Of a stretch of DNA of 64,000 bases, positions 3,955 through 46,781 are shown one piece after another. The number at the start of each line of letters is the position of its first letter. Positions within the stretch are counted from its first letter, which is position 1. The stretch is from Theionarchaea archaeon. Lineage in GTDB: Archaea > Methanobacteriota_B > Thermococci > Methanofastidiosales > SZ-28-30. The notes below the pieces were generated by a model. It did no database searches and had not been told where the DNA came from. It saw nothing but the letters and a program-made list of their open reading frames with translations. A program made the position numbers and the translations under genes. Location of the stretch: contig JACVGT010000021.1 in the NCBI GenBank assembly GCA_018992685.1, positions 64,001 through 128,000 on the forward strand, read 5' to 3'.

Positions 3955-5790
3955 ACGAAAGGTAGAATAGGTATTGCACTTGTTCTCATGATATTACTGA
4001 GCTTGAGTATGTCTGCGGTTTATTCTGAAAACGACAACTTCAGTGTGGAGTATCATTTCACTGTCGCCACTGCCACAGATCAGTGTGGTTCCTGGATGAT
4101 CGAGGGCACTATAACCCAAGAGATTGCAGGAGAACCCTTGGTCCCCTACTACCCGGCCACCATTCTTTTGCCACAGGATTCAGAGGTGAAGGACATCAAA
4201 GTGAAGACCAGCAACCCTGTGATCCAGAAGGGTGTAGATTTGCCGTGGGGTCAGCCCCCTTGCACATTCAGTGATGAACCTGTAGTGGTGGGCAAGAATG
4301 AAGCAATCTACGGCTCTGATAATCTGTACCCGGCAACAGACTTTGAGGTGGTGAGCATAGAATCCTGTAAAGGATTCCAGATACTTCTGGTCAACCTCTA
4401 CCCTCTCCAGTACCAGCCAAAATCTGGAACCATAAAGTTCTATGAGACCATGACAGTGGACGTGAAATTTGGCAAGGGCATGAAGAACAACCTGTACAGA
4501 GGACTGGGAGGAGACAAAGCAGAGATCGCTGGGTTCGTGGACAATCCTGAAATGATATCCACATATGAAGAGGGTGCTGTCCCGCTGCAGACTTACCAGT
4601 ACGTCATCATCACCAACGATACCATGAGTTCCACTTTCCAGACACTGGCCAACCATAAGGCACATTACGTGACAGGAGCAGCGGTGTACACGGTATCATG
4701 GATTTCATCCAACTACACCGGAAGGGACAACCAGGAGAAAATCAGGAACTTCATCAAGGACTACTACACCAACCATGGAACACGGTATGTACTGCTGGGT
4801 GGTGATATTGCTGCTGTCCCCTACAGAGGATTCTACGTGTCAACTGGTGGATACACCGATTATGACATGTTGGCTGACATGTACTACGGCCATCTCGATG
4901 GCACGTGGAATACAGACAATGACAGACGCTGGGGAGAATCAGGCGAAGAAGACTGGTATGCTGAAGTCGCTGTGGGAAGAGCACCCGTTGAGACCACCTC
5001 AGAAGCATCAGCTTTTGTGAGCAAAGTCATCAGCTATGAACTGGCCACAAAACCACAAAGAGTCCTCTTGCACCAATCCCGGATTGCATCCAACAACGTC
5101 CCCGATTCACGATGTCTGGCATACAACTGCGACAACTGGATTCCTTCAGGGTACACCATTGATTACCTCTTCGAGGAGAATGGTACTGTTTCCAAATCAG
5201 TGTGGATTTCCCACTGGGCCCAGAACCCCGTGGCAGTAGCCCACATTGGACACGGTAACACAACTGTCTACTACATCAACTACCAGAATGGTGGTACAGT
5301 AAGCTGGTACAATTCAGATGTTGCCAGCATGACCAACACGTTCTGGCCCTGGACCACCAGCGTCGCCTGCATCTGTGGACAGATTGAAGCCAATGACTGC
5401 CTGGCAGAAGCCTACGTCAAGGACTCCAACAATGGAGCTATTGCTGCCATCTACAATGACAACTACGGGTGGTACTCCACAAGCAATGCGTGCAAGTACT
5501 CTGGAGAGTTCTGCGAGAAGGAGTTCAGAGCCTGCTGGAGTGATGGAAAGCAGAAGCTGGGTGATATGCTGAACAAGGCACGGAGCTACTTGGTATCCTC
5601 TGCAAAAATCAACACCACCTACAGATGGTGCTTCTACGAGAGGAACTTGGTAGGAGATCCTGAATCCCCCTCTCTCACCAAGAGAGCAAGCTACAGCGTT
5701 TCAGTAAGGCAGTTCCATTCCTTTGGGGCTTATGGGCTGTTTTCATACAGTACGACATTTCTCGCTCCTATAAGGTATGGACTTCAATAA
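3955..5790 (+). CDS. Secreted gingipain-like cysteine peptidase (family C25) with propeptide; probable ACG start
   Basis: Propeptide GEPLVP; catalytic domain YVLLGGD, ADMYY, VAVGRAP, IGHG, SVAC, NLVGDP; signal peptide (T/M)KGRIGIALVLMILLSLSMSA begins at ACG 3955, after in-frame TGA at 3946. Confidence 0.88.
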   Translation, partial: TKGRIGIALVLMILLSLSMSAVYSENDNFSVEYHFTVATATDQCGSWMIEGTITQEIAGEPLVPYYPATILLPQDSEVKDIKVKTSNPVIQKGVDLPWGQPPCTFSDEPVVVGKNEAIYGSDNLYPATDFEVVSIESCKGFQILLVNLYPLQYQPKSGTIKFYETMTVDVKFGKGMKNNLYRGLGGDKAEIAGFVDNPEMISTYEEGAVPLQTYQYVIITNDTMSSTFQTLANHKAHYVTGAAVYTVSWISSNYTGRDNQEKIRNFIKDYYTNHGTRYVLLGGDIAAVPYRGFYVSTGGYTDYDMLADMYYGHLDGTWNTDNDRRWGESGEEDWYAEVAVGRAPVETTSEASAFVSKVISYELATKPQRVLLHQSRIASNNVPDSRCLAYNCDNWIPSGYTIDYLFEENGTVSKSVWISHWAQNPVAVAHIGHGNTTVYYINYQNGGTVSWYNSDVASMTNTFWPWTTSVACICGQIEANDCLAEAYVKDSNNGAIAAIYNDNYGWYSTSNACKYSGEFCEKEFRACWSDGKQKLGDMLNKARSYLVSSAKINTTYRWCFYERNLVGDPESPSLTKRASYSVSVRQFHSFGAYGLFSYSTTFLAPIRYGLQ

Positions 5791-5791
5791 C

Positions 5792-5860
5792 TTCTTTGAT
5801 TTCTTTATTTTGTTTTTTTATTTTTTTATTCCTGTTTTCTGGTCGTTTTGTTGTTATTTC
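5792..5860 (+). terminator. Oligo-T archaeal terminator tract
   Basis: Long T-rich run (ttctttgatttctttattttgtttttta tttttttatt...) right after the peptidase stop. Confidence 0.65.
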
Positions 5861-6039
5861 AGAATTATCATCCTTGCTGGTCAGTGATCCTGTCATATAA
5901 GATGAACATCTGCGAGATGAAACGAATGGAACTTGAATGAGAAGAGAAGATTATCTCTCGTCACAGTATGTCATCACATACTTCTTTGGCGTGACACCCA
6001 TATCTTTTAATACCTTCTTTCATAAAGATTCTTGATACT

Positions 6040-6321
6040 ATGGCATGTAAGATGAACTGCACTTTGAAAGGGAATGACCCTAAAGAAACCATGGAAACCC
6101 TCATCAAGATGGTTGAAGGTCAAGGGTTTGTCTTCAAAGGAACCTCCACCAAAGGGACATTCAAGTATGAGAAAACACTGAAAGCAAGCGGTGAATACTC
6201 CAGGTCAAAAAAGAAGGTTACCTTGACTGTAACCAAATATCCCTTCTTTGTCACTTGCGGAATGATCATATCAGAACTGAACAAAAGGCTGGGTGACTAC
6301 CTTTCATGTGAAGAAGATTAG
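6040..6321 (+). CDS. Small hypothetical protein (93 aa)
   Basis: TATA-like TTTTAATA about 30 nt upstream; plausible globular composition with MAC...PFFVTC pattern. Confidence 0.7.
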   Translation: MACKMNCTLKGNDPKETMETLIKMVEGQGFVFKGTSTKGTFKYEKTLKASGEYSRSKKKVTLTVTKYPFFVTCGMIISELNKRLGDYLSCEED

Positions 6322-6415
6322 AGTATCACTCGCCGGCATTGTAGGTTCGGGATAGTGACACGCCTGGCAAGCAATCAAAAATAAATGTGAGAAACCTTCC
6401 ATAAGGTGAACCGAG

Positions 6416-7645
6416 ATGACCAAAAGTATTGCGACATCGGGCTTTGTTAAGCCAGGATTTGAGGCTGTGCGGGAAGCTTTCATCGAGAACTTCGAGCGCC
6501 GCAGTGAGCTTGGAGCTGCCTGTTGTATCTACTACCGTGGGGAAAAAGTAGTGGACTTATGGGGCGGAATCCGGAACAAAGCAACGGGCGAACCCTGGCA
6601 GGAGAATACGATGGCCCTTGTCGCCTCGACCACAAAGGGACTTGCCGGTCTATCCATGGCACTCGCTCATTCTCGAGGGTTGTTTGATTACGATGAGCGT
6701 GTCTCGAAGTATTGGCCGGAATTTGCACAGCAAGGGAAGGAATTGACTACAGTTAGGCAACTCCTTTCGCACCAGGCCGGATTGCATGTGTTGGATATGC
6801 CGCCAGAAAAGAACCTGATCGCTGACCTCGACCAGCTCGCAATTGTACTCGCGGGGCAAAAGCCGGAGTGGGAGCCCGGCACGAGACAGGCTTACCATGC
6901 CATCACACTCGGGTTCTATGAAAGCGAGTTGCTTCGCCGGGTAGATCCTAAACACCGCTCTTTAGGGCAGTTCTTCCAAGAGGAAATGGCCATTCCACTG
7001 GGCCTTGATTTCTATATTGGGCTACCTGAAGAGATTCCCAACGCCAGACTTGCAACACTTCACAGGGTTAATTTGGCGAGTGCCTTTTTCACCATGCCCA
7101 TCCAGTTAGCACTCTCAGCTATGAACCCGCGCTCACGGTTTCGCCGATCGTTACTAGGATCGTTGCCAGAAGAGAGAGAGCACATCTATGCCCGGAATCT
7201 AGAGGTACCGGCAGGAGGGGGAGTGGGAACGGCTCGAGCCATTGCTCGAGCGTATGGCGAGTTCGCGACCGGGGGCCGTAACCTCGGATTGCGGGAGGAA
7301 ACACTTCAACAGCTAATGGCGCCCGCAGTCCCCCCACTTCATGGATTCCATGATGAATGCCTCAAAATGGAGATTGTTTTCTCACTTGGTTTCATGAAGC
7401 CAAGTCCTGAGAACGCATTCGCTCATCCGAGCTCCTTCGGAGCCCCGGGAACAGGGGGATCCTTCGGTTTTGCTGATCCTCATGCCGGGATTGGTTACGC
7501 GTACATCCCGAATTTGGTTAAGTTCTACTTGACGGATCCAAGGGAAGAAGCGCTTCGTACAGCAATGTATCGCTCGATTGGCAAGACAGACCCGTACCTC
7601 GAGCACAGAGAGCAATCCAGCACGTGCGGTCAGGGGGATTCGTGA
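6416..7645 (+). CDS. Serine hydrolase, beta-lactamase class C / EstB-like esterase
   Basis: SxxK motif ASTTKG, LLSHQAGL, PGTRQAYH, FGAPGTGGSFGFADP; SD AGGTGA. Confidence 0.9.
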   Translation: MTKSIATSGFVKPGFEAVREAFIENFERRSELGAACCIYYRGEKVVDLWGGIRNKATGEPWQENTMALVASTTKGLAGLSMALAHSRGLFDYDERVSKYWPEFAQQGKELTTVRQLLSHQAGLHVLDMPPEKNLIADLDQLAIVLAGQKPEWEPGTRQAYHAITLGFYESELLRRVDPKHRSLGQFFQEEMAIPLGLDFYIGLPEEIPNARLATLHRVNLASAFFTMPIQLALSAMNPRSRFRRSLLGSLPEEREHIYARNLEVPAGGGVGTARAIARAYGEFATGGRNLGLREETLQQLMAPAVPPLHGFHDECLKMEIVFSLGFMKPSPENAFAHPSSFGAPGTGGSFGFADPHAGIGYAYIPNLVKFYLTDPREEALRTAMYRSIGKTDPYLEHREQSSTCGQGDS

Positions 7646-8277
7646 TGGTAGAAACTGCAAGGATATTGCGATTCTTCCTCGTCTGTGGGATTCTCTCTTC
7701 GCTATTGTATGTCAGCACTGATATACTCGCAGGCATGCTGTGGGAAGGCTATGACTTTGCCTCCCAGTCCGCCAGTGAACTGAGCGCTTTAGGTGCTTCC
7801 ACGAGACCCTTCGTGCTTCCGCTTGAACTCACGGCTGACGTTCTTTTGATCGCTTTCGCGCTGGGAGTATGGGTATCAGCCGGTCGGAATCGCGCTCTGC
7901 GAGTGACTGGAGGCCTGCTGGCTGCAAACGCGGTCACGGCCCTGGTGGCAGTTGCATTCTTTCCGGTGCACCCCGGCGAGGCCATGACAGCGTCTGCCAA
8001 TACCATGAACGTAGTTCTCATGGGTCTGAGCGTACTCTTCCTTCTAGTAGCCATGGGATTCGGAGCTGCTGCATGCCAAAATTGGTTCCGCTTCTACTCG
8101 ATCGGGACATTTCTGGTATTCCTTGTAGAAGACATTTTGGCAACAATGGGCGCTCCGCGAGCCATTAGAGGACAATCGGGGCCGTTGGTGGGGATACAGG
8201 AGCGCACTATGATCTATGGTTGTCTGTTGTGGATCGTGGTGCTGGCAATTGTCCTCTTACGCGCGGAAAAGAAATAA
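7645..8277 (+). CDS. DUF998-like membrane protein
   Basis: Five to six hydrophobic segments; YDFASQSASELSALGA and GIQER motifs. Confidence 0.7.
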   Translation: MVETARILRFFLVCGILSSLLYVSTDILAGMLWEGYDFASQSASELSALGASTRPFVLPLELTADVLLIAFALGVWVSAGRNRALRVTGGLLAANAVTALVAVAFFPVHPGEAMTASANTMNVVLMGLSVLFLLVAMGFGAAACQNWFRFYSIGTFLVFLVEDILATMGAPRAIRGQSGPLVGIQERTMIYGCLLWIVVLAIVLLRAEKK

Positions 8278-8398
8278 TTAATTCCGTTTATTCGTGAATG
8301 AAGTAAGAAAGTGTCTCGTGAAGCTGGGACGAATAAAAAGTACCAAATCTAAAAACAAAGAAAGAATATAGTACTATAGATTCAAACAAGTCATTTTA

Positions 8399-8470
8399 TG
8401 CCCCTGTCGGGATTCGAACCCGAGTCACAGGCTCCGCAGGCCCGTATTATATCCACTAAACTACAGGGGC
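8399..8470 (-). tRNA. tRNA-Arg(GCG)
   Basis: GCCCCTG/CAGGGGC acceptor stem, CGGGC-CTGCGGA-GCCTG anticodon arm, TCGGG-TTCGAAT-CCCGA T arm; no intron, CCA not encoded. Confidence 0.95.
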
Positions 8471-8724
8471 TACTACTCATTGTGAGAGTGTGAATAAAAG
8501 GTTTCCCCCTGCACTCTTCTTTTCTCCATCCAAGTCCTCCAACCTTTCTCATACAATGAGGTCCAAGGAGTCTTTCCACCGCCAAGAATGATCCCCACAT
8601 GGCTTTCCGTTGGAACCCCCGAACTAGGCAACCTTCTGCTTGGCTTTGGATAACAACAGGGGCACATTGAAATGTTGAGCCAGCCCACAAAAAGACTTAA
8701 GTATCGAGAGGAGGTGGACAATTC

Positions 8725-8934
8725 ATGCTAGAAAACCTCAGCAAGAATGGAGGAGGGAAAAGGGTGCTGAGAGTGACATATGTCATTCTCTTGTTGGCTC
8801 CTGTGGGAATTCCCTATCTTTTCAAAGAACAACTTCCCGGATCATGGTACAATTGGACAATTTTCGGGATGTGTCTTGCGATTCTGGCTTTCACTTTCGC
8901 CCAGATGGCCTACATTATTGTCCGGAACCCATAG
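8725..8934 (+). CDS. Small two-TM membrane protein
   Basis: SD GGAGGTGG, upstream CTTAAGTA TATA-like box, two hydrophobic helices. Confidence 0.6.
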   Translation: MLENLSKNGGGKRVLRVTYVILLLAPVGIPYLFKEQLPGSWYNWTIFGMCLAILAFTFAQMAYIIVRNP

Positions 8935-8956
8935 TCATTTGCTACTTTTTCCTTGC

Positions 8957-9466
8957 TCATTCCCCACTTGCTTTTTCCCTCTTGCGACATCCGGTCATTT
9001 GCGATTTTCTCTGGATACTCCTTCTTCGGATCACCCGATTTCCACAGAAGGGACATTCCGTGAGAGCGTGCCCGAATTTCCGTCCACATCCTACACACAC
9101 AAACTCCCACCGGAATATCTCCTCAATCCCCTTAACTCCTGCAGACTCGTATGGTACATCAAGAACTTCGCACACGTTTTGTATCCCATAGTCCCCGCTG
9201 ACCACACATCCATCCAGATCCAGTGCCAGTGCCACTACCTTCACATCTGTAGCACTCAAGGTGTCTTTCGTTTTCCCAACTGCACATTCAACCTCACTGA
9301 CTGCCTCTTCTGATGGCTCCTCAATCTGCAGTTTCCCTGATGCAATCAGTGATTCCATGGTAAATTCTGATGAATAATCTCTGATCTCCTGGATGACTTC
9401 AGGAACAGTATACCCATTATCCACAAATCCCGAGATGATGGCTGATGCATCCAGAATGTATTTCAT
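8957..9466 (-). CDS. nob1: NOB1-family endoribonuclease (PIN + zinc ribbon)
   Basis: MKYILDASA, LSATDVKVVALA, DYGIQNV, C-terminal CVGC..CPFCG; overlaps the NAD kinase stop. Confidence 0.9.
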   Translation of the reverse strand: MKYILDASAIISGFVDNGYTVPEVIQEIRDYSSEFTMESLIASGKLQIEEPSEEAVSEVECAVGKTKDTLSATDVKVVALALDLDGCVVSGDYGIQNVCEVLDVPYESAGVKGIEEIFRWEFVCVGCGRKFGHALTECPFCGNRVIRRRSIQRKSQMTGCRKREKASGE

Positions 9467-10194: not shown

Positions 10195-10322
10195 GCAAAA
10201 CTCTGGAAATTTTCATATATAAGGTTTTGGAATTGTCACCAGTGCTGCGAAACGCACATTTTCTGGGAGAGGATTCCGTGATGAACGGAAACCTTTATCA
10301 ACCCCACGGTCTTTCATACTGC

Positions 10323-11102: not shown

Positions 11103-11156
11103 TTTCACCCCAGGATTCTTCCATTAGAATACGTTGAATCGTCGGCTCGCGGACCT

Positions 11157-12347: not shown

Positions 12348-12467
12348 GTCGGTTGTTTGAAAGGGAGCCTTTTAAAGATTGGCAAGAAGGAAGGAAAACA
12401 ATATTCCGCAGTCACTCCTCCTGAAGTTGATGCAATACCTTTTTAGTACACGTTCTCAGATTACAGT

Positions 12468-14393: not shown

Positions 14394-14407
14394 GAGTACC
14401 CAGAGGA

Positions 14408-16067: not shown

Positions 16068-17663
16068 TTATGTCAAATGTAACGTTCTAACGCTGTTGTT
16101 TCTCCGAGAGGTTTTTCTCCACCAGATTCCCATGATACGTTTCGATCTCCACAGACTATGTAGTTCTGAAATGATGAGTACCCGGTCAAAAATATCCACA
16201 ACATTAAACGAATTGCCAAAAAGACTCCTCACATACTGACCAGAAACGGCATTCGCATTGGAAATTACCGTATTGTCAACTCTGGATGCATAGGGATAGG
16301 AAGAATGGCCTGTAAGCACCAAATCTACCTGGAGGTCGCACAGTGTTTTCAAGACGTCTCCTGCATCTTCCAGTAGCCCCTTCTCTCTGATATGGGGCAA
16401 AGGAATGACGTTGTGGTGCAGGAACACGATGCTCATGTCCTGTTCCTGCTCTCTGATACCCCTTTCCAGTTTGGCCAGCTCGAATCGCCCTACAGCCCCC
16501 ACATCTGAATCATACTGAGAAGAGTTCACTGCATGCACATGAACCAGTGGGTTCTCAAAGTCCTGGTCCCATCCGCCTGCTAATCGGGGAAAGAGTTCAT
16601 ATCCAATATAGTTGATGTCTCGGGGCCCGGGCGTATATACTACGGGAGAACTGATCTGGCTCAAATACGTTTCTGCCAGATCGTAGTGGAGAGGAATTCC
16701 CGCCTCCACAATATCGCCGCAGTGGACCACAAGATCTGGTGAGAGAGCATTAATCTTTCTCACAGCATTTTCAAACTTTTTCCTCTCAAACATTTTTCGA
16801 TCCGAAAAAAAGGTACCTGCAATGTGAATTATTCGGGCCAGCTTCTTACCTTCTGAAATGAAGATCTCACTTGAGACACGGGGGTACTCATGTGGCTGAT
16901 ATTCCTGGAAGTGTTGTGGCCGAGACGGAGCGGTGTCACCAGCACTCCCATAGCACTGGGATCGTTCATTCCCTACTCTCCTGATGGTGATGGTGATCTT
17001 CTGAGGTGAAATGTCCACCTGGTTATAACTGCATGCATCTCCCGCTCTCACCTTCCTGCAGGACATGCAGCCCGCATTGCTGATGATCATGTCATCCACA
17101 TCGACCACATTCGGGTAGTGACGGTGGCCGGATAAAACGAGGTTTACATTATACTTTTGGAGTAAATCCATCAAATCTCCTGCATTGAACAGGACGTTTC
17201 TCTCTGTACCTGCCTTTGGAACAGGGACCAGGTGGTGATGGACTGCCACTATTTTTATCTTCTTTGAACTGTACTTCATCAGCTGAGTTTTCAACCAATT
17301 GAACTTGCTGCTTCCCACTCTGCCCTCATTGCGATCGGGAATGGAACTGTCCACGTAAAGGAGTACATAATCATCACCCTCTTTCACACCATTGAATTCC
17401 CCGTAGTACTCATTGAAAAGTTCGTATCCAACGTTACGTGAATCATGGTTTCCCGGGATAATCACAAGTGGCTTTTTTATCGTGTCGATGAAAGCCTTGG
17501 AATGTTCATACGCTTCCCTCAGTCCAGAGTCAGTCACGTCGCCTGTGTGAACCACCAGATCAAAAGGAAGGCGGTTAACCTCTTCCACGATCTGCGAAAA
17601 GGGTTCCTTCTTGAATTCTCCTCCAGGAGTGATGTGAGAATCCGAGATATGAGCAATTCTCAT
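16068..17663 (-). CDS. Tandem calcineurin-like metallophosphoesterase (second domain degenerate)
   Basis: Domain 1: HISDSH, GD, GNHD, HHH, GHRH; domain 2: HIAGTF, GD, GPRD, HHN, GHSS. Confidence 0.88.
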   Translation of the reverse strand: MRIAHISDSHITPGGEFKKEPFSQIVEEVNRLPFDLVVHTGDVTDSGLREAYEHSKAFIDTIKKPLVIIPGNHDSRNVGYELFNEYYGEFNGVKEGDDYVLLYVDSSIPDRNEGRVGSSKFNWLKTQLMKYSSKKIKIVAVHHHLVPVPKAGTERNVLFNAGDLMDLLQKYNVNLVLSGHRHYPNVVDVDDMIISNAGCMSCRKVRAGDACSYNQVDISPQKITITIRRVGNERSQCYGSAGDTAPSRPQHFQEYQPHEYPRVSSEIFISEGKKLARIIHIAGTFFSDRKMFERKKFENAVRKINALSPDLVVHCGDIVEAGIPLHYDLAETYLSQISSPVVYTPGPRDINYIGYELFPRLAGGWDQDFENPLVHVHAVNSSQYDSDVGAVGRFELAKLERGIREQEQDMSIVFLHHNVIPLPHIREKGLLEDAGDVLKTLCDLQVDLVLTGHSSYPYASRVDNTVISNANAVSGQYVRSLFGNSFNVVDIFDRVLIISELHSLWRSKRIMGIWWRKTSRRNNSVRTLHLT

Positions 17664-17682
17664 GTTTATCCTGCATTCACGC

Positions 17683-18099
17683 CTATTCGCTGGAGATCAC
17701 TGTCTCCAAGAGCTGTCTTTCCGGATCTACAAGATCTTTTAAGGAAAATAGCCCTGTGATCTGTCCTCGTTCTGTGATGAGAACATGACGTATCTGGTGT
17801 TGTTGCATTAATTCAAGCACTTTAGATACGGGAGAGTCAATGTCAGTTGTGATGAGGTCCCTGGTCATGATGCTGGAAATGGGTTTAGCATAGGACAGTC
17901 CTTTAGCCACCACCCGCTCGATAACGTCCCCCTGGGTTAGGAATCCCACGACTCCTTCATTACACACTACCAGAGAACCTACCTTGAATTCCACCATTTT
18001 TCGACAGGCTTCCTGAATAGTTTCATGTTCAGATATGCCCACCAGTTTTCGTGTGGTGTACTGTCTGATGGGAACTGAAAGGTTATTAATATCATTCAT
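17683..18099 (-). CDS. CBS-pair domain protein
   Basis: Two CBS repeats (KVGSLVV...GFLTQGD; IRHVLI...GLFSLKD); overlaps the pgk2 stop. Confidence 0.88.
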   Translation of the reverse strand: MNDINNLSVPIRQYTTRKLVGISEHETIQEACRKMVEFKVGSLVVCNEGVVGFLTQGDVIERVVAKGLSYAKPISSIMTRDLITTDIDSPVSKVLELMQQHQIRHVLITERGQITGLFSLKDLVDPERQLLETVISSE

Positions 18100-18973
18100 C
18101 CGTTGCAGCCTCCTTTTGAAGTTGATCATACATTCTATTTAAGATTTGAGTGACTGTCTCCTCTAACGCTATATTTTCCAGAACCGGAACCCTCTCTCTA
18201 TTAGCCCTCCCTACGATGTGGTCTTGTATCTGCCTGATCTTGTCAATATTCTCAAGGTAGTGTTCTGGAGGTCTTCTGCTGTCCTTTGCTCGAGCATAGA
18301 ACCTGTTCACGTGTTCCTCTCTGTCACTGAGGGTAAGAACGAAATGAAATATCGTCCGATCCTGACGTTCAACATACCCAGGGACAAGATGAATTCCTTC
18401 CATTACAAGACTGAACCCCTCGGTCAGTGCTCTGTTGATTATGGCATTAATCCCCACAGCAACATGAGATACCTGAAGCTCAAAAGCATAGATCACTGCA
18501 CTCAAAAATGAAGAAGGAGCCTGAATTTCTTTCCATGCGGAAAATGAGGACGTGTGAAGAGTGGGGAGTAGATCCCGTGAGACCATTTTCCGCATGACCT
18601 CACGCACGACGTCTGTCCCAATAATGGAATGAATCCCCAGTCGATAGCTGATTTCAAAGGCTACCGTAGATTTCCCGATGCCTGTGGCACCTCCCAGAAG
18701 AACAACAAGTGACTGTTTTTTCTTTCTCAGTGAATGCCACATCTGGTAGAACGAGGCGATACGTGGGTACCCGTCATCTATCAGGATGTGGTAAGTCATG
18801 TCAGTGAGATCTTGTTCAGAGATCCGGGAGATTCCTGAGGTCACCATTCTCTGCCCAATTTCCTCTGCCATTTTGTAGGCCCTGTTCACATCCAGCCCTG
18901 CTTTCAACAAAGATCCGGCCAGGACACCCTTTGAAAATGGAGTTACATACTTCTTGCCTACTACTTCTATCGT
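18092..18973 (-). CDS. pgk2: 2-phosphoglycerate kinase (ATP-cone + P-loop); probable ACG start
   Basis: N-terminal PFSKGVLAGSL ATP-cone motif lies upstream of the first TTG; GGATGIGKS, GTDVVREVMR, EGIHLVPG; ACG at 18973 after SD GGAGGGGATC. Confidence 0.9.
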   Translation of the reverse strand, partial: TIEVVGKKYVTPFSKGVLAGSLLKAGLDVNRAYKMAEEIGQRMVTSGISRISEQDLTDMTYHILIDDGYPRIASFYQMWHSLRKKKQSLVVLLGGATGIGKSTVAFEISYRLGIHSIIGTDVVREVMRKMVSRDLLPTLHTSSFSAWKEIQAPSSFLSAVIYAFELQVSHVAVGINAIINRALTEGFSLVMEGIHLVPGYVERQDRTIFHFVLTLSDREEHVNRFYARAKDSRRPPEHYLENIDKIRQIQDHIVGRANRERVPVLENIALEETVTQILNRMYDQLQKEAATDE

Positions 18974-20313
18974 GTGATCCCCTCCTCAGCCTTTCTTGCC
19001 AGCTGGACAATGGCATCCTCCAAGCTGGTGACAGTTCCTCCTCGAAGGCGGGGAACGTTATCCATGAACACGACATTGCGGTCGAATTTCAAAGCCTCTC
19101 GCGTGGCCACATCAATGGCAGAGGCCTTTATTTCAGTAAGGAGAGTATCTGCCTGGGGAAGGAATTGGTTCAGGTCTTTCTTTAATCTCGGTCGATTAGA
19201 AAGATGGGGAGAAGCCTTTACTATTTCACAACTGAAGGTTTGTTCGAGGTAGGGTACCAGAGTAGATTCCAGGACTGAGGGGGGCGCCGTGGTAGCCAGG
19301 AATACTTTTCTACCTGAAATGTCTTTCAGGGGTACCGGCCTGAACACGCAGTGTGCCTGGGGGAGTTCGGGCTTGATTTCACTAATTGCTTTTTGCATCT
19401 CTGCCACTTTTTGCGGCGAAGCCATGGGTTCTTCACACATCATGAGGATGAGCAGATCGGCCATGAGAATTCTAAAGGGACCGAAGTACTCGTTGATGAA
19501 TTCCAATGGTTGATGCGCTCCTGCAATCACGATGCAGCAATCTGTATTCACAGGAGGGAAGGTGGTGCCTGACCCCTCTAGTATTACGAAGGTTGCTTCC
19601 AGTGTATTTGCCAGTTGGGCTCCTTTTTCCATATTAGATGAAAAAGGAACTCCAGCCATTCCACCACCACATCGCCTGCATCCGACTGTTGCTACGCGGG
19701 AAATAAGAGCATTCTCCCAGTGGTCTGACGCAGCGTGCTTTCCCTGATTTGCCTGTTTCAGTAGATACGAAGGAGTGAGTTCGATGGTGTCACCTCTGAT
19801 GATTTCGGGCTGAGCTGGACCTCCCCTTCCCATCGTCACAATCCAGGGAATATAACCTGAAGCCTTGAGTGTTCGGGCTATGTATCCCGAGACAGCAGTT
19901 TTTCCCACCCTCTTTGTTGTCCCCACCACGGAAAAACTGGGACGTTTCAGAATCTTTGGGTATCTTGGAGGTGTAAACAGGAAGTCTGATCCCTTGTATT
20001 GGACTCCTTCTTTCATGAGCGCACAGGCGAGATGTAACCTGCTGACGTAGTCCATAATCGGCTCGTCTGAAAGATCCACAACTTGCTCAATCTCATGAGC
20101 CGAGCAAGCTGTCACAATAACGTCGTGAATATCTCTTGACTGGTTTCCTCTGTAGATAGGAATATCAAGATGTGCTGTCAATTCCTCAATGCTACCGACT
20201 TTTTCCGTTCCTCCCAAGAAAACAGCAGCTCTCACGTCACCTTCAATAGTTGCCAACGCATCTTTCGTTACTGGTGGATAATGTTCGCCGTCTATGAGGG
20301 CAAGAATATTCAT
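18967..20313 (-). CDS. cpgS: Cyclic 2,3-diphosphoglycerate synthetase
   Basis: LIDGEHYPPV, GGTEK, DLSDEP, KRVGKTAVS, MGRGGP, HAASDH, GCRRCGGG, EGSG. Confidence 0.93.
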   Translation of the reverse strand: MNILALIDGEHYPPVTKDALATIEGDVRAAVFLGGTEKVGSIEELTAHLDIPIYRGNQSRDIHDVIVTACSAHEIEQVVDLSDEPIMDYVSRLHLACALMKEGVQYKGSDFLFTPPRYPKILKRPSFSVVGTTKRVGKTAVSGYIARTLKASGYIPWIVTMGRGGPAQPEIIRGDTIELTPSYLLKQANQGKHAASDHWENALISRVATVGCRRCGGGMAGVPFSSNMEKGAQLANTLEATFVILEGSGTTFPPVNTDCCIVIAGAHQPLEFINEYFGPFRILMADLLILMMCEEPMASPQKVAEMQKAISEIKPELPQAHCVFRPVPLKDISGRKVFLATTAPPSVLESTLVPYLEQTFSCEIVKASPHLSNRPRLKKDLNQFLPQADTLLTEIKASAIDVATREALKFDRNVVFMDNVPRLRGGTVTSLEDAIVQLARKAEEGITR

Positions 20314-20373
20314 CAAATGAACTTGTTTAGTATGTATTTAAGGGTTCGCTTGAGAAAGAAGGGACTTCTCATA

Positions 20374-20763: not shown

Positions 20764-20812
20764 CGGAGGAAGGCTTAAATAGGTTTATCATGAAGGTGAC
20801 AACGGTGATACA

Positions 20813-22321: not shown

Positions 22322-22329
22322 GATAAGTG

Positions 22330-34358: not shown

Positions 34359-34850
<492 letters not shown>

Positions 34851-34854
34851 TGCT

Positions 34855-39878: not shown

Positions 39879-39880
39879 CC

Positions 39881-40498: not shown

Positions 40499-40572
40499 GG
40501 GAGGATTGTAGATGAGTTCTCTTTCTCGCACATGACACGAACACTTTTATTCTTGTGCTTCCCTTGAAGTGC

Positions 40573-41529: not shown

Positions 41530-41559
41530 CTCATAAGATATAAAGAAAAGAGAAGAATA

Positions 41560-43209: not shown

Positions 43210-43218
43210 GAATATCCC

Positions 43219-43908
43219 TCACTTCTCAATATCCCTCTCTATGTATGATTTCTTCAACTGGTCCAGGTCCATGGTGGTAAGGTTCTCCATTTCCTGATCG
43301 AACACTCCAGCTTCGATTTCGTCATTCCGCTCCTTCAGATGCAGTGACTTGGGCAGGATGAACTTCCCGTACAATCGCCGGGCCAGCTGACCCACGTGAT
43401 AATGGACAATATCTGCCGGACATCGTGCTGCACACAGCCCACACTGCAGACAGTCAAATGACAGTTCAGCTGCCTGTTCAATATCTCCTCGTAATGATGC
43501 CTGGATGTAGTCCATGACCTGCAAATCCTGTGGACACGCTTTAGTACAGGTATTGCAGCTGACACATCGTGCAATTTCGGGGTACAACGATACAATGATG
43601 TTGGGTCCAGAAGCAAGTTCTTCAAGTTCATATTCTGCCTTGTTGGCAGGAACAAAAGGCAGTTCTGTCAAATACATGCCGTCCTCTGCAGGAGTCTGGC
43701 AGGCTAAAGCCGTCTTGAATTTGTATTCATCTTTTTTTCGGAATATTGTTCCACAAGCCCCACAGAACCCAGCTCTACATCCTGCTCCTCTGATGAACCG
43801 GTATCCTGCGTATTCCATGGCCTTCATGATGGTCAGTCCTTCAGGAACGTCATATTCCTTACCCATGATGTAGACTTTGATCATTCTGGTCTTGATAGTA
43901 TCTGTCAT
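43219..43908 (-). CDS. Iron-sulfur subunit (2Fe-2S + 2x4Fe-4S), FrdB/TfrB N-terminal-like
   Basis: GCRAGFCGAC..LAC; CVSCNTCTKACP; CLQCGLCAARCP. Confidence 0.88.
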   Translation of the reverse strand: MTDTIKTRMIKVYIMGKEYDVPEGLTIMKAMEYAGYRFIRGAGCRAGFCGACGTIFRKKDEYKFKTALACQTPAEDGMYLTELPFVPANKAEYELEELASGPNIIVSLYPEIARCVSCNTCTKACPQDLQVMDYIQASLRGDIEQAAELSFDCLQCGLCAARCPADIVHYHVGQLARRLYGKFILPKSLHLKERNDEIEAGVFDQEMENLTTMDLDQLKKSYIERDIEK

Positions 43909-43912
43909 ACAA

Positions 43913-44770
43913 TCACCTTAACAGTCCTTTCTCTTTCAATAACGGTTTGGGATCAACATAGTGTTGATCAAATTCGAGGGCATCGAAGAGCCCCAATGAT
44001 ATAGCCAGTAACTGGGAGAAATACAGAATTGGCATGGGTGCCAGTTCCTGTTCCAGGTCTTTCTGCCTGAAGTCTAGATTGAATTCACACAGAGGACAGG
44101 ATAGAACCACAGCTTCTGCACCTCTCTTGCGGGCAGAACTGAGAATGTGGTATGTTTTCTCGCATACAACCTCTTTATGATTTACCGTGTGATAACTTCC
44201 ACAGCATTCAAGCTTATACGGATAGTCCACAACAGTAGCCCCCAGGGAGGTAAGAAGTTCTGCCATCACCGTAGGTCTTTCCGGGTTGTCGATGGAGATC
44301 TCCTCAGGTCGCAGCAATAAGCAGCCATAATAGGGTACAACAGTCAATCCTTTGAGGGGGTTCTTTACGGGGAGAGAATCGAATCCCATCTCCTTCAATA
44401 CTGTCAAATAATGAACCACCGTCACTCCGCCTGTGTAGTCTTCCTCCTGGTCCATGAACGAGTTCATCTTTTCAAGCTTCTCAGGGTCACTCTTCACCAG
44501 TTGATTTGCCTGCTCCAGGGTATTGTAGCACATGGAGCACAGTGTCGTCACTCTGTCATACCCCATGTCCTGGACTCTGATCAAGTTTCGTATCGGTGCC
44601 AACTGGTGCATGAGATCATCACTGGCCAGTGAATAGACTGTGCCACAGCAGTTCCAGCGGGGCATCTCGATGAGTTCAATACCCACTGCTTCTGAAACTG
44701 CCTTTGTGGTGTCCTCGAAAGGTTTGGCCGTTGTTTTCAAGGTACACCCTGGATAATACGGAATCTTCAC
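43913..44770 (-). CDS. hdrB: Heterodisulfide reductase subunit B-like (two CCG domains)
   Basis: YYPGC, WNCCG, CSMC, YYGC, ECCG, CPLC. Confidence 0.92.
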   Translation of the reverse strand: MKIPYYPGCTLKTTAKPFEDTTKAVSEAVGIELIEMPRWNCCGTVYSLASDDLMHQLAPIRNLIRVQDMGYDRVTTLCSMCYNTLEQANQLVKSDPEKLEKMNSFMDQEEDYTGGVTVVHYLTVLKEMGFDSLPVKNPLKGLTVVPYYGCLLLRPEEISIDNPERPTVMAELLTSLGATVVDYPYKLECCGSYHTVNHKEVVCEKTYHILSSARKRGAEAVVLSCPLCEFNLDFRQKDLEQELAPMPILYFSQLLAISLGLFDALEFDQHYVDPKPLLKEKGLLR

Positions 44771-44774
44771 GAAA

Positions 44775-45179
44775 TCACCCTGTATACTTTCTGAAGTTTG
44801 ACACCAAAGCTACCGGAGGAAGTTCCTTCAGATCTTCCTTGGAAATCTCAGATATTCTGATGTGATCAACGTTCTCTCGAAGAACAAGCAAGCGTAGTGC
44901 TTCCATGACTCTTGTCAAGTCCACATCCTTGGGACACCTGGTGGCACACTGGAAACATGATGCACACAACCAGATGGTCTTGGACTCCAACACGTTCCAG
45001 TCGTTGGCCTGGACCAACTCGATGACTTGATGAGGGCGAACATCCATAAGAGTTCCTACAGGGCATCCTGCGGAGCACTTACCACATTTATGACAAGAAA
45101 AGATCTTCTCTCCACTCAATTCCTCTGCTTTTTCAAGGAGAGTCGTTTCCTTGGATATTTTCGGGATCATATGACTCAT
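44775..45179 (-). CDS. hdrC: Heterodisulfide reductase subunit C-like
   Basis: CHKCGKCSAGCP, IWLCASCFQCATRCP. Confidence 0.9.
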   Translation of the reverse strand: MSHMIPKISKETTLLEKAEELSGEKIFSCHKCGKCSAGCPVGTLMDVRPHQVIELVQANDWNVLESKTIWLCASCFQCATRCPKDVDLTRVMEALRLLVLRENVDHIRISEISKEDLKELPPVALVSNFRKYTG

Positions 45180-45442
45180 CTCGGCTGTGATGAAGCCTCT
45201 TTACTTATGTATATAAGGTTTTCTATATGAGTTTAAAAAGTTTCTGCTGTATAAACCTTAATAAGTAGAGGCAAAGGAATCGGAAAAATCCCGGAGTAAC
45301 TATCTTTCTGGCTGGTCTCAATCCCCCGCTTCAACTAGTGGCACCTGTCACTCGTCTTCTAACGTTCATCCAGTGCCCAGTCTATCCTACTCTTTAACTC
45401 CTGGGTTTCATCCGGCACCTGGCCGCATCTCTGGATACGTGT

Positions 45443-46570
45443 CTACCCGATTACCAGTGAGTCCAATGTCTTGGGGCACGTGGTCAGCGCATTGCCACCC
45501 GTCTTTGTTACCAAGACAGTATCAGAATGCCTGAATCCGCCAAAGCCAGGTATATACACACCAGGCTCATTGCTGATTACCATGTTCTCCTGCAGAACTG
45601 TTGTGTCACCTTCTTCAATCCACGGAGGTTCATGACCTTGTAGTCCAATGCCGTGGCCCATTCTATGTCTGAGATAGCGTTCATATCCTCGTTCTCTGAT
45701 CACTTGAAGGCATTGCTCATTGACATCAGAACATTTCACACCGGCCCTCACCGCTTCTCCACCCTTTTTTTGGGCCTCATACATGACTTCAAACGCTTCT
45801 TTTTGTTCTGGTGCAGGGCTCCCCACAAATCCTGTGCGTTCACTTTCTGCTTGATATCCACCAACAGCGGCTCCGAAGCTCAGAATGATAGACTCACCTT
45901 TTTCCACCTTCTTGCTGGAAGGTAACCCGTGAGGGAGTGCACCATTCTTCCCGGAGCCCACCAGTCCTCCGCACATGCCGCCCTGAACAGGCACAATTTC
46001 CTCCAGTTCTTCAAGCATCCGTTCAGAAACATCCATCCTGGTCCTCTCATTGATTTCGAATTCAGTGACTCCCGGACGTGTATGGTGGACAGCCCGCTCC
46101 ACTGCATAGTCTGCATATTCGGCCGCTTTGGAAATTAGGACAACTTCCTCAGGGGTTTTCACCAATCTCATTTGTGAGATTATGCTGGAAGAACGAATTT
46201 TCAAATCAGAGAGTATTTTATGGGATGATATAGCAAGACTGTCCTCAATGCCCACATTGACCAAGGCCCGCTTCTTTAAGTGTGATTTGATCCATTCGAT
46301 GCGATTGATCTCCCCCGGATAGTCAAAATATGTTTCTACCTCTGTATGTTCGGGGACATGATCCACCTCCAAGAGGGGAATCAACAAGAGGGGTACACCT
46401 TCTCGGGGAATTACTGCTGCCAGAGGTCTTTCTGTCCTCAAGTGAAAGAACCCTGTTGCATAGGCGATATTGGCTGGCTCAAAAAGGAGGAGAGCATCCA
46501 GAGACTGCGTGTCCAGAGTGTCTTGGATTTTGTGGCAGATCTTTTGATAGAATTCGCTGCTCAGCTTCAT
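45443..46570 (-). CDS. Xaa-Pro aminopeptidase/creatinase family (M24)
   Basis: Creatinase N-domain, ALPHG, GHGIGLQGHEPP, SNEPGVY, FRHSDT; start at ATG 46570. Confidence 0.88.
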   Translation of the reverse strand: MKLSSEFYQKICHKIQDTLDTQSLDALLLFEPANIAYATGFFHLRTERPLAAVIPREGVPLLLIPLLEVDHVPEHTEVETYFDYPGEINRIEWIKSHLKKRALVNVGIEDSLAISSHKILSDLKIRSSSIISQMRLVKTPEEVVLISKAAEYADYAVERAVHHTRPGVTEFEINERTRMDVSERMLEELEEIVPVQGGMCGGLVGSGKNGALPHGLPSSKKVEKGESIILSFGAAVGGYQAESERTGFVGSPAPEQKEAFEVMYEAQKKGGEAVRAGVKCSDVNEQCLQVIRERGYERYLRHRMGHGIGLQGHEPPWIEEGDTTVLQENMVISNEPGVYIPGFGGFRHSDTVLVTKTGGNALTTCPKTLDSLVIG

Positions 46571-46710
46571 AAGTTCTCTTTTCCCAATCGTGATATATAG
46601 GTTGCGGTGGAAGCAGTAACAACCTCTTTGAAGCTGCTTCCGTGACTGCCAGGGAATTCTTACCTGTTCTGCTGCCAAAGTTTATAAAGTTAGGTTTCTA
46701 CCCCTCAATG

Positions 46711-46781
46711 GCGGCTGTAGTCTAGTGGTAGGACTCAAGCCCCCCAAGCTTGCGACGCGGGTTCGAATCCCGCCAGCCGCA
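46711..46781 (+). tRNA. tRNA-Gly(CCC) with C at position 33
   Basis: GCGGCTG/CAGCCGC acceptor, CAAGC-CCCCCAA-GCTTG anticodon arm, GCGGG-TTCGAAT-CCCGC T arm; TATA TTTATAAA at 46681. Confidence 0.92.

What the first reader, a model, noticed from the sequence alone, without database searches (positions are those of the whole stretch)
3955..46781. Three independent C-for-U sites at essential positions: candidate C-to-U RNA editing or ACG-initiation system
Seen: two of roughly 60 genes have ACG exactly where ATG is expected, both in an ACGA context behind strong SDs (3955+, 18973-), and tRNA-Gly has C33 in place of U33 (46742). The genes are otherwise intact. Established: C-to-U editing creates AUG from ACG and UGA from CGA in plant organelles, and Methanopyrus kandleri edits tRNA C8 to U8 with a cytidine deaminase; I know of no mRNA editing in archaea. 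Inference: this lineage may have a cytidine-deaminase editing system, possibly gating translation of specific genes, or it routinely uses SD-led ACG starts. No deaminase gene lies in this window, the tRNA site has a different context, and three events could be coincidental errors or SNPs.
Basis: inference. Interest (0 to 1): 0.8.

Follow-up and report, generated by a model that had tools for sequence, protein, structure and literature searches.

The report
ACG start codons and C33 tRNA-Gly
In this uncultured sediment archaeon a few intact, conserved genes really do have ACG (or ATA) where the start codon should be, most likely because a strong ribosome-binding site lets near-miss start codons work, while the odd C33 in one glycine tRNA is a separate inherited trait of its clade, so an RNA-editing system is not needed to explain either.

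Summary
ACG sits at the homolog-defined start of a C25 peptidase gene (3955+) and of 2-phosphoglycerate kinase (18973-). Both follow GGAGG-type Shine-Dalgarno (SD) sites at working spacing, with an in-frame stop just upstream and no usable canonical start. Other assemblies keep the C. The peptidase ACG is shared with a sister species at dS about 1.1 and omega 0.07, so it is not an error or a dead gene. Two more ACG starts (G000:C30:6934, C11:11013) and two ATA starts (C7:78432, C28:25851) lie elsewhere in the genome. ACG and ATA are the two non-canonical transition neighbours of ATG, and C-to-U editing cannot repair ATA. The CDA-family searches (PF00383, PF14437) found only two housekeeping deaminases and no CDA+THUMP fusion, and no tRNA has C8. 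C32-C33 in tRNA-Gly(CCC) is encoded in 9 of 133 genomes of the class, confined to two families, including species with ATG at these starts. Best reading: SD-assisted near-cognate initiation, plus an unrelated clade-specific tRNA variant. No RNA data were available, so editing is unlikely but not excluded.

The parts
3901..3908 (+). TTTATATA, an archaeal TATA-box-like element about 47 nt upstream of the ACG. It implies a short leadered mRNA that carries the SD.
   Evidence: Read from the sequence. The AAAAGTTTATA core is identical in G001 and G002. The TATA consensus is recalled, not tested.
3940..3948 (+). Shine-Dalgarno site AGGAGGTGA. It contains the in-frame TGA (3946-3948) that closes the frame upstream.
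   Evidence: GGAGGTGA is conserved in G001 and G002. The GGAGG-to-start spacer is 9 nt, within the 6-9 nt range calibrated.
3955..3957 (+). ACG at the start-codon position of the C25 peptidase gene.
   Evidence: G001 also has ACG and G002 has ATG. Paralogs start ATG or TTG followed by AAA GG. X4 contig 3942-4259 is identical.
3955..5790 (+). Secreted peptidase gene, family C25 (611 codons from the ACG), with an N-terminal signal-peptide-like segment. It is one of 8 paralogs in the genome.
   Evidence: Pfam Peptidase_C25 7.3e-44 and Propeptide_C25. Paralogs. omega 0.069 against G001 over 388 codons.
18979..18987 (-). Shine-Dalgarno site GAGGAGGGG inside the end of the upstream gene. The GGAGG-to-ACG spacer is 7 nt, the modal value.
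   Evidence: GGAGG is conserved in G001 and G002.
18971..18973 (-). ACG at the start-codon position of 2-phosphoglycerate kinase. It overlaps the end of the upstream gene (ACGATAG).
   Evidence: The aligned codon is ATG in G001, TTG in G002 and ATG in L060/L061. X4 contig 17237-19500 has 0 differences. X3 contig 17915-19500 has 2, and table 3 lists two X3 differences on this stretch, at 19026 and 19030.
18092..18973 (-). 2-phosphoglycerate kinase gene (293 codons from the ACG).
   Evidence: NCBIfam NF003259 1.3e-109, above cut-off, protein residues 2-290 on profile 6-297. ATP-cone from residue 8. omega 0.059 against G001.
18967..20316 (-). Cyclic 2,3-diphosphoglycerate synthetase, the upstream gene of the two-gene operon. 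Its stop codon TAG is at 18969-18967.
   Evidence: PDB 8ORU/8ORK chains, E 1.4e-138. ORF.
46711..46781 (+). tRNA-Gly(CCC) gene.
   Evidence: ARAGORN. Rfam tRNA 69.6 bits, full length. Cloverleaf kept with compensatory pairs across 12 genomes.
46741..46742 (+). C32 and C33 of the anticodon loop, where relatives in families f3 and f4 have U32 U33 and Thermococcaceae-like f5 has C32 U33.

Best explanation
Two unrelated things are present. (1) The ACG codons are genuine translation starts. In this Theionarchaea-type genus a small share of genes with strong SD sites carry a near-cognate codon in the start position, either ACG or ATA. I infer that the 30S subunit, placed by SD:anti-SD pairing at the usual 6-9 nt spacing, lets the ordinary initiator tRNA (anticodon CAU) pair with the codon despite one mismatch, probably at reduced efficiency. 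ACG and ATA are the two non-canonical codons reachable from ATG by one transition. The simplest history is therefore ordinary T>C or G>A mutation of a start codon, tolerated (perhaps used to lower expression) because the SD site carries initiation. For 2PGK, the 7-nt overlap with the upstream stop codon (ACGATAG) may add termination-reinitiation coupling. (2) C32-C33 in tRNA-Gly(CCC) is a genomically encoded trait inherited within two families of the order. It sits in a tRNA whose cloverleaf is maintained by compensatory changes. It has no demonstrated link to the start codons. Shown: codon positions, SD spacing, conservation, selection on the ORFs, and phylogenetic distribution. Inferred: that the ribosome initiates on ACG/AUA itself and with Met.
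For: Start position. Orthologs have ATG or TTG on the aligned codon at site 2 (G001, G002, L060/L061), and G002 has ATG at site 1. Six of 7 paralogs of the peptidase start ATG (3) or TTG (3) followed by AAA GG. No canonical start exists between the upstream in-frame stop and conserved protein sequence. Pfam/NCBIfam matches begin upstream of the first canonical start: ATP-cone from residue 8 against TTG at 22, and BtrH_N from residue 16 against 33.

Not an error. G001, about 79% identical in DNA, also has ACG at site 1 and lacks the ATG-3988 alternative. X4 contigs are identical over both sites, and X3, from another study, over site 2.

Genes alive. omega is 0.069 for site 1 (388 codons to the contig end, dS 1.10), 0.059 for site 2 and 0.073 for site 3. 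In the 26-codon signal-peptide stretch, G000 and G001 differ by 6 synonymous and 3 non-synonymous changes (read).

Recurrence. A third ACG start lies at G000:C30:6934, where G001 has ATG. A fourth lies at G000:C11:11013, with GGTGAT-N3-ACG in both G000 and G001. There G001 has an in-frame TGA 4 codons upstream, and Pfam dTDP_sugar_isom starts at that residue.

ATA starts. At C7:78432, G001 also has ATA, both ORFs are 294 codons, and Fer4_12 runs from residue 14 while the first canonical start is at residue 76. At C28:25851, Flavodoxin_5 runs from residue 6 while the first canonical start is at residue 27, and G001 has GTG.

Counts at working SD spacing in G000: ATG 226, GTG 33, TTG 13, ACG 4, ATA 6. 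Control spacers give ACG 0/1/1 and ATA 1/2/2. ACG is the rarest Thr codon (0.96%) yet the commonest ACN at working spacing: 4 against 1, 1 and 2. The same filter on 800,000 of 1,922,421 bases of a Thermococcaceae-like control genome gives 85 canonical starts and 0 ACG, ATA, ATC or ATT.

Precedent. About 30% of the putative alternative initiation sites found by ribosome profiling in Haloferax were near-cognate codons (passage read in PMC7261190).

tRNA. The C32-C33 pattern is found in 9 of 133 genomes of the class: f1 genus g1 3 of 3 including G000, f2 6 of 6, and 0 of 17 f3, 0 of 7 f4, 0 of 2 f6 and 0 of 97 f5. Other Gly isoacceptors in the same genomes keep U33. Nine of 22 predicted pairs show compensatory change.
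Against: There is no protein or RNA evidence, so initiation on ACG is inferred only. The genome-wide enrichment rests on 3-4 events and is statistically weak. One of the 4 ACG rows (C1:35444) and 3 of the 6 ATA rows (C1:281523, C14:26083, C3:195551) could not be validated. The 4 ATT rows have no Pfam match and look spurious. One ATA row (C11:11052) I first took as conserved was withdrawn, because G001 has an in-frame TGA 8 codons downstream of it.

At site 2, with G002 as outgroup, 19 amino-acid changes are unique to G000 against 7 unique to G001. This could mean relaxed constraint after ATG>ACG. At sites 2 and 3 the ACG is in G000 only, so recent loss of translation cannot be excluded there.

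At site 2 and at C11:11013 an ATA or ATT codon follows the ACG directly and could be the real start. An ACG-in-one-species, ATG-in-the-next pattern is also what conserved C-to-U editing sites look like in plant organelles (recalled). The single control genome differs in G+C (54.8% against 46.6%). An archaeal aIF1 was reported to discriminate against AUU in vitro (passage in PMC4705826).
Confidence: 0.65

Rival explanations
1. C-to-U RNA editing: a cytidine deaminase converts ACG to AUG in these mRNAs, and perhaps C33 to U33 in tRNA-Gly, after transcription.
For: Every validated ACG start needs exactly a C-to-U change to become AUG. Relatives carry genomic T at the same sites, which resembles the species pattern of organellar editing sites (recalled). 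C-to-U tRNA editing exists in one archaeon, Methanopyrus kandleri CDAT8 (recalled). No RNA data were available to exclude it.
Against: ATA starts, which C-to-U editing cannot repair, occur at comparable frequency in the same SD context. PF00383 finds only 2 deaminases, a ComEB-like dCMP deaminase and a tetrameric cytidine deaminase that passes NCBI's equivalog cut-off. PF14437 finds the same dCMP deaminase. The 3 THUMP loci are on other contigs or places, so there is no CDAT8-like fusion. All tRNAs have U8: 34 of 35 as parsed, and the 35th is a 1-nt parse offset. The flanking context is not shared: ACGA, ACGA, ACGG. C33 occurs in genomes that have ATG or TTG at these starts (G002) and across a second family, so the tRNA and mRNA sites do not co-vary. 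The genome is 91% complete, so a missing gene cannot be excluded. The DYW search was uninformative because its control rang nowhere.
Confidence: 0.05
2. The ACG (and ATA) codons are start-codon knock-outs. The genes are silent and decaying, or are translated only from downstream canonical codons as truncated proteins.
For: Sites 2 and 3 carry ACG in G000 only. 2PGK shows 19 against 7 lineage-specific amino-acid changes. The peptidase is one of 8 paralogs, so it is individually dispensable. An ATG 11 codons downstream exists at site 1 in G000.
Against: The site 1 and C11:11013 ACGs are shared by two species separated by dS about 1.1, with open frames and omega 0.07 at site 1. G001 lacks the downstream ATG at site 1. 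The stretch between the ACG and the first canonical start is conserved as protein and lies inside Pfam domains. The ACG is fixed in contigs from other samples and another study. Downstream starts would remove the signal peptide (site 1), part of the ATP-cone (site 2) and 17 residues of BtrH_N (site 3).
Confidence: 0.15
3. Sequencing, assembly or binning errors, or rare SNPs captured in one metagenome-assembled genome.
For: The genome is a 45-contig metagenome assembly. Contigs in other runs break at 3942, close to site 1.
Against: The same C is seen in an independent sister-species genome at site 1. It is also seen in contigs of another sample (X4, both sites) and another study (X3, site 2). 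C33 occurs in 9 genomes with differing stems.
Confidence: 0.02

Closest known systems
Near-cognate (non-AUG) initiation in eukaryotes, e.g. ACG starts of yeast ALA1 and AAV capsid VP2
   Same: ACG is decoded as a start by the normal initiator tRNA with a second-position mismatch, giving reduced output. Archaea share eIF1/eIF2-type factors (aIF1, aIF2). Yeast ALA1 uses ACG (abstract of PMC2909995 seen in the listing). AAV VP2 is recalled, though several AAV titles appear in the listing.
   Different: Here start-site choice would come from SD:anti-SD pairing on leadered or operon-internal prokaryote-type mRNAs, not from scanning and Kozak context. Nothing has been tested experimentally.
Rare bacterial/archaeal non-canonical starts (AUU, AUA, AUC, CUG in NCBI table 11; infC AUU)
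   Same: A near-cognate codon behind an SD site, tolerated or used to tune expression. ATA starts are found here too. Ribosome profiling in Haloferax volcanii saw about 30% near-cognate codons among putative alternative sites (PMC7261190 passage).
   Different: ACG is not among the table-11 start codons (tool description; the rest recalled). None of the 15 and 25 papers listed by my two searches concerned a natural ACG start in archaea. Here ACG is as frequent as, or more frequent than, ATA, and is conserved between species.
ACG-to-AUG start-codon creation by C-to-U editing in plant organelles (PPR-DYW editosome)
   Same: Genomic ACG at a homolog-defined start, with relatives encoding ATG at the same site. 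Several chloroplast and mitochondrial genome papers mention ACG start codons in the listing.
   Different: No DYW or other editing-type deaminase was found. ATA starts coexist. There is no RNA evidence, and mRNA editing is not known in archaea (recalled).
CDAT8 C8-to-U8 tRNA editing in Methanopyrus kandleri
   Same: An archaeal tRNA with a genomic C at a normally invariant U position.
   Different: There the C is at position 8 in most tRNAs, and the enzyme is a CDA-THUMP fusion (recalled). Here no tRNA has C8, there is no fusion, and a single tRNA has C at position 33.
Elongator or initiator tRNAs with encoded C33: Sulfolobales tRNA-Cys(GCA), eukaryotic initiator tRNA-Met
   Same: A genomically encoded C33 kept across a clade. 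[quoted passage not shown] Eukaryotic initiators carry C33 (PMC5041475 passage).
   Different: A different tRNA (Gly, anticodon CCC), a different archaeal lineage, and C32 changes together with C33, making an unbroken C31-C36 run. I found no description of it in the 15 papers listed.

Membership tests
SD-led near-cognate (non-AUG/GUG/UUG) translation start | A near-cognate codon occupies the homolog-defined start position | tested here: met
   Orthologs and paralogs align ATG or TTG to the ACG. G001 has GTG aligned to the C28 ATA.
SD-led near-cognate (non-AUG/GUG/UUG) translation start | An SD site at the same spacing as for canonical starts | tested here: met
   GGAGG-to-start spacers are 9, 7 and 7 nt for the three GGAGG-led ACG starts. 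The calibrated peak is 7 and the range 6-9.
SD-led near-cognate (non-AUG/GUG/UUG) translation start | No canonical start can give the conserved N-terminus | tested here: met
   In-frame stops lie 2-5 codons upstream. The first canonical start is 11-32 codons downstream, inside conserved sequence or a domain.
SD-led near-cognate (non-AUG/GUG/UUG) translation start | The gene is maintained by selection | tested here: met
   omega is 0.059-0.073 for the three ACG genes and 0.157 for the C7 ATA gene. Caveat: 19 against 7 lineage-specific changes in 2PGK.
SD-led near-cognate (non-AUG/GUG/UUG) translation start | The protein N-terminus or an initiating ribosome maps to the codon | not testable with these tools
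   No proteome or ribosome-profiling data for this uncultured organism.
C-to-U RNA editing of mRNA (organelle type) | RNA carries U where DNA carries C | not testable with these tools
   No usable RNA data.
C-to-U RNA editing of mRNA (organelle type) | A dedicated editing deaminase (DYW or other) | tested here: inconclusive
   PF14432 gave no match, but its control rang in 0 of 14 genomes. PF00383 and PF14437 find only two housekeeping deaminases. The genome is 91% complete.
CDAT8-type tRNA C-to-U editing | A cytidine deaminase domain fused to THUMP | tested here: not met
   The 2 CDA loci (C13, C4) and 3 THUMP loci (C1, C8, C1) are at different places.
CDAT8-type tRNA C-to-U editing | Genomic C at position 8 in many tRNAs | tested here: not met
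   No tRNA has C8. Thirty-four of 35 read T at position 8 as parsed, and the other is a 1-nt parse offset.
tRNA (Rfam RF00005), glycine isoacceptor CCC | Full cloverleaf scoring above the gathering threshold, with pairs kept by covariation | tested here: met
   69.6 bits against a threshold of 29, model positions 1-71 of 71. Nine of 22 pairs show compensatory change across 12 genomes.
tRNA (Rfam RF00005), glycine isoacceptor CCC | Invariant U33 of the anticodon loop | tested here: not met
   C33 in G000 and in 8 further genomes.

The most novel reading that the evidence does not exclude
This archaeal lineage has a post-transcriptional C-to-U editing activity that turns genomic ACG into AUG at selected starts, and possibly C33 into U33 in tRNA-Gly(CCC). 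That would be the first mRNA editing in Archaea. The species pattern (C in some species, T in sisters) fits, and no RNA data exclude it. A less radical but still new reading is that ACG is a selected, conserved fourth start codon in this genus, used with strong SD sites to set low expression.
Probability: 0.05. Interest if true: 0.9.

Novelty: new variant of a known kind. Interest (0 to 1): 0.4.

Why it matters
If ACG and AUA are real starts here, standard gene callers, which allow only ATG/GTG/TTG, will truncate or drop these genes in this lineage. Such genes will then look like broken or N-terminally short proteins. Conserved ACG starts behind strong SD sites would be a natural case for asking how far the archaeal initiation machinery (aIF1/aIF2 with a bacterial-type SD) tolerates a second-position mismatch. 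They would also let one ask whether weak start codons are used for expression tuning, as in bacteria and eukaryotes. The C32-C33 tRNA-Gly(CCC), kept across two families, is a natural exception to the near-universal U33 U-turn nucleotide in an elongator tRNA. It marks a clade within the Methanofastidiosa/Theionarchaea-type order.

Tried and rejected
1. RNA evidence: the look-up of sequencing runs listed no RNA holder, so DNA-versus-RNA comparison could not be done. I draw no conclusion on expression.

3. A codon-usage log-odds score, meant to separate coding from non-coding N-terminal extensions, discriminated too weakly to use.

4. A listing of all GGAGGTG sites (564; 164 with a canonical start at working spacing) was too noisy to interpret.

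5. ATA at G000:C11:11052 was first counted as a conserved ATA start. I rejected it after finding an in-frame TGA in G001 and a conserved GGTGAT-N3-ACG 13 codons downstream.

6. The four ATT rows and ATC/CTG/AAG/AGG rows of the SD filter were either without Pfam support or looked like non-coding frames, and were not counted as starts. ACG at C1:35444 and C7:120478 remain undetermined.

7. The DYW deaminase search was uninformative because its control rang nowhere.

8. X3 contig 3942-4837 has one difference whose position was not among the rows shown (190 rows hidden). X3 therefore does not settle site 1.

9. G003, the other genus of the family, gave no ortholog for either window site, and no tRNA-Gly(CCC) was recovered from it. 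It says nothing either way.

10. Supplementary Figure S8 of PMC7261190, which gives the codon identities of near-cognate sites in Haloferax, could not be seen.

Full report
WHAT THE WINDOW IS. The window is G000:C6:64001-128000 of a 3.03-Mb, 45-contig, 91%-complete archaeal metagenome-assembled genome. The nearest public loci for its 2-phosphoglycerate kinase are labelled 'Theionarchaea archaeon' (88% identity) and 'uncultured Thermococci archaeon'. Near-identical DNA occurs in marine, estuary and other sediment metagenomes from several studies.

CHECK OF THE OBSERVATION.
- Site 1. ACG is at 3955-3957 (+), behind AGGAGGTGA (3940-3948). The frame is closed by TGA at 3946-3948. The next canonical start is ATG 3988.
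- Site 2. ACG is at 18973-18971 (-), 7 nt behind GGAGG. The frame is closed by TGA at 18988-18986. The next canonical start is TTG 18910, 21 codons in.
- Site 3. tRNA-Gly(CCC) at 46711-46781 has the loop CCCCCAA, so C32 and C33 are at 46741 and 46742. It is the only one of 35 tRNAs found in the genome with C33. Two apparent others are intron-containing tRNAs that ARAGORN mis-parsed, and they have U33.

IS ACG REALLY AT THE START POSITION? Yes.
- The site 2 gene is 2-phosphoglycerate kinase (NCBIfam NF003259, 1.3e-109, above cut-off; ATP-cone from residue 8). In the same-genus genomes the aligned codon is ATG (G001) and TTG (G002). In two more distant homologs it is ATG.
- The site 2 gene overlaps by 7 nt (ACGATAG) the end of a cyclic 2,3-diphosphoglycerate synthetase gene (PDB 8ORU, E 1.4e-138).
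- The site 1 gene is a secreted C25-family peptidase with 7 paralogs in the genome. Three paralogs start ATG and three TTG, each followed by AAA GG. One is unclear.
- At site 1, G002 has ATG on the aligned codon, but G001 has ACG as well. In G001 the codon equivalent to ATG 3988 is also ACG.

ERRORS ARE EXCLUDED. G001 is a different species, about 79% identical in DNA here. Contigs assembled from other runs keep the sequence:
- X4 contig 3942-4259 has 0 differences.
- X4 contig 17237-19500 has 0 differences.
- X3 (another study) contig 17915-19500 has 2 differences; table 3 lists two X3 differences on this stretch, at 19026 and 19030.
- X3's contig over site 1 has one difference that I could not place, because 190 rows of the output were hidden.

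THE GENES ARE ALIVE.
- Site 1, G000 against G001: 388 codons open to the contig end, 87% amino-acid identity, dN 0.076, dS 1.10, omega 0.069.
- Within the 26-codon signal-peptide stretch, which a downstream start would skip, the two species differ by 6 synonymous and 3 non-synonymous changes (read).
- Site 2: omega 0.059.
- Against this reading: with G002 as outgroup, 2PGK has 19 amino-acid changes unique to G000 and 7 unique to G001. That may indicate some relaxation in the lineage that carries ACG.

GENOME-WIDE COUNT. I calibrated SD spacing first. The distance from the end of GGAGG to the first canonical start peaks at 7 nt, with a range of 6-9. I then listed every codon that met all of these conditions:
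- it lies at spacer 6-9 behind an SD word;
- it opens at least 150 codons;
- it has an in-frame stop within 12 codons upstream;
- it has no canonical start upstream in frame;
- if non-canonical, it has no canonical start within 6 nt in any frame or within the next 8 codons.

Results for G000:
- GGAGG only: ATG 104, GTG 11, TTG 4, and 43 non-canonical rows including ACG 3 and ATA 3. Three control spacer windows gave ACG 0, 0, 0 and ATA 1, 2, 2.
- Four SD words: ATG 226, GTG 33, TTG 13, and 88 non-canonical rows including ACG 4, ATA 6, ATT 4, ATC 2. Controls gave ACG 0, 1, 1.
- ACG is the rarest Thr codon in long ORFs (0.96%) but the commonest ACN at working spacing: 4 against 1, 1 and 2.

The same filter on other genomes:
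- 800,000 of 1,922,421 bases of a same-class control genome (G034): 85 canonical starts, 66 non-canonical rows, and 0 ACG, ATA, ATC or ATT.
- 491,340 bases of G001: 37 canonical starts, 10 non-canonical rows, 1 ACG and 1 ATC.

These numbers are small, and the control differs in G+C. I treat them as support, not proof.

VALIDATING THE ROWS.
- ACG at G000:C30:6934 (BtrH/DarH-like acyltransferase). Pfam BtrH_N begins at residue 16, while the first canonical start is at residue 33. G001 has ATG on the aligned codon. omega is 0.073.
- ACG at G000:C11:11013 (RmlC-like cupin). GGTGAT-N3-ACG is present in both G000 and G001. G001 has an in-frame TGA four codons upstream. Protein conservation with synonymous differences begins at the ACG. 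Pfam dTDP_sugar_isom starts at that residue. This replaces an ATA 13 codons upstream that I had first accepted.
- ATA at C7:78432 (radical-SAM activase-like). ATA is in both species, both ORFs are 294 codons, and Fer4_12 runs from residue 14 while the first canonical start is at residue 76. omega is 0.157.
- ATA at C28:25851 (flavodoxin). Flavodoxin_5 runs from residue 6 while the first canonical start is at residue 27. G001 has GTG.
- Undetermined: ACG at C1:35444 and C7:120478; ATA at C1:281523, C14:26083 and C3:195551; ATC at C5:168441.
- Probably spurious: the 4 ATT rows, none with a Pfam match.

In total I accept four ACG starts (two shared with G001) and two ATA starts.

MECHANISM. ACG and ATA are the two non-canonical codons one transition away from ATG; the third transition neighbour, GTG, is canonical. 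No transversion neighbour other than the canonical TTG was validated. The simplest account has two steps:
- Ordinary transition mutation hits start codons.
- The change is tolerated where a strong SD site positions the 30S subunit, so the initiator tRNA pairs with one mismatch.

The genome's initiator tRNA has a normal CAU anticodon and the usual three G:C pairs in its anticodon stem (read). For 2PGK the overlap with the upstream stop may add reinitiation coupling (inference). Lower output from such codons is expected from other systems (recalled) and might be useful or nearly neutral for these genes.

Near-cognate initiation has some experimental footing in archaea. Ribosome profiling in Haloferax found about 30% near-cognate codons among putative alternative sites (passage in PMC7261190). 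On the other hand, an archaeal aIF1 was reported to reject AUU in vitro (passage in PMC4705826).

EDITING. I could not test editing directly because no RNA run was available. The indirect evidence is against it:
- ATA starts coexist with the ACG starts.
- The CDA-family searches (PF00383, PF14437) found only a ComEB-like dCMP deaminase and a tetrameric cytidine deaminase.
- The three THUMP loci are elsewhere, so there is no CDAT8-like fusion.
- All tRNAs have U8.
- The flanking context differs among the ACG sites.
- The DYW search was uninformative.

The alternation of C and T at the same site among species is compatible with editing, so I keep it at about 5%.

THE tRNA. C32-C33 in tRNA-Gly(CCC) is encoded in G000, G001 and G002 and in all six genomes of family f2. 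A pattern search found it in 9 of 133 genomes of the class and in none of 17 f3, 7 f4, 2 f6 or 97 f5 genomes. Families f3 and f4 have U32 U33, and f5 has C32 U33. The other glycine isoacceptors in the same genomes keep U33.

The gene scores 69.6 bits as a tRNA, and its stems covary, with 9 of 22 pairs showing compensatory change. It is therefore a maintained, clade-specific variant and not an error. It occurs in G002, which has ATG and TTG at the two window starts, so it does not track the ACG starts.

An encoded C33 has precedent in Sulfolobales tRNA-Cys(GCA) (passage in PMC7668247) and in eukaryotic initiators (passage in PMC5041475). I found no mention of a Gly(CCC) case in the 15 papers listed. 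Its function is unknown. Because tRNA-Gly(UCC) is present and can in principle read GGG (recalled), constraint on this tRNA may be relaxed. The C31-C36 run might also affect decoding of G-rich runs (speculation).

COMPARISON AND NOVELTY. Near-cognate initiation is known in all domains. ACG starts are documented in eukaryotes and viruses, and as editing substrates in organelles (listing). In two literature searches, none of the 15 and 25 papers listed (of 15 and 146 that held the terms) concerned a natural ACG start in an archaeon. Those searches cover open-access text only, and I read only listings and the passages cited. I rate this a new variant of a known kind: conserved, SD-led ACG and AUA starts in an uncultured archaeal genus, plus a clade-specific C33 elongator tRNA.

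VERDICT. Interest is 0.4.

Noticed in passing
window 18092-20316 (-): A two-gene operon of cyclic 2,3-diphosphoglycerate synthetase (PDB 8ORU, E 1.4e-138) and 2-phosphoglycerate kinase. This is the pathway for the solute cDPG, known (recalled) from hyperthermophilic methanogens, here in a sediment Theionarchaea-type genome. It is conserved in G001 and G002.
   Followed up: partly
window 3955-5790 (+); G000 contigs C15, C35, C7 (x2), C26, C5, C11: An expanded family of 8 secreted C25 (gingipain-type) peptidase paralogs at 50-70% identity. They use weak start codons unusually often: TTG in 3, ACG in 1.
   Followed up: partly
G000:C7:78432 (-), G000:C28:25851 (+): ATA at the start position of a radical-SAM activase-like gene (ATA also in G001) and of a flavodoxin gene (GTG in G001). 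Pfam domains begin upstream of the first canonical start in both.
   Followed up: yes
G000:C30:6934 (-), G000:C11:11013 (-): Two further ACG start codons outside the window, in a BtrH/DarH-like acyltransferase (ATG in G001) and an RmlC-like cupin (ACG also in G001).
   Followed up: yes
G000:C15:145082-145173 (+): ARAGORN reports a 92-nt 'tRNA-???' with a four-base anticodon call (tcta), directly upstream of tRNA-Gln(CTG). It is probably an intron-containing tRNA that was mis-parsed. Not examined.
   Followed up: no
window 3913-3942 and 4240-5620: Contigs from other runs break at 3942, and high-depth contigs with many differences lie over 3913-3937 and parts of the peptidase gene. This fits paralogs or related strains in the same sediments.
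   Followed up: no
window 8399-8470 (-): tRNA-Arg(GCG) with a normal U33. In two runs, contigs show a 1-base indel near 8334 and an inserted T at 8616, and one joint skips 8471-9351. This suggests strain variation beside the tRNA gene.
   Followed up: no
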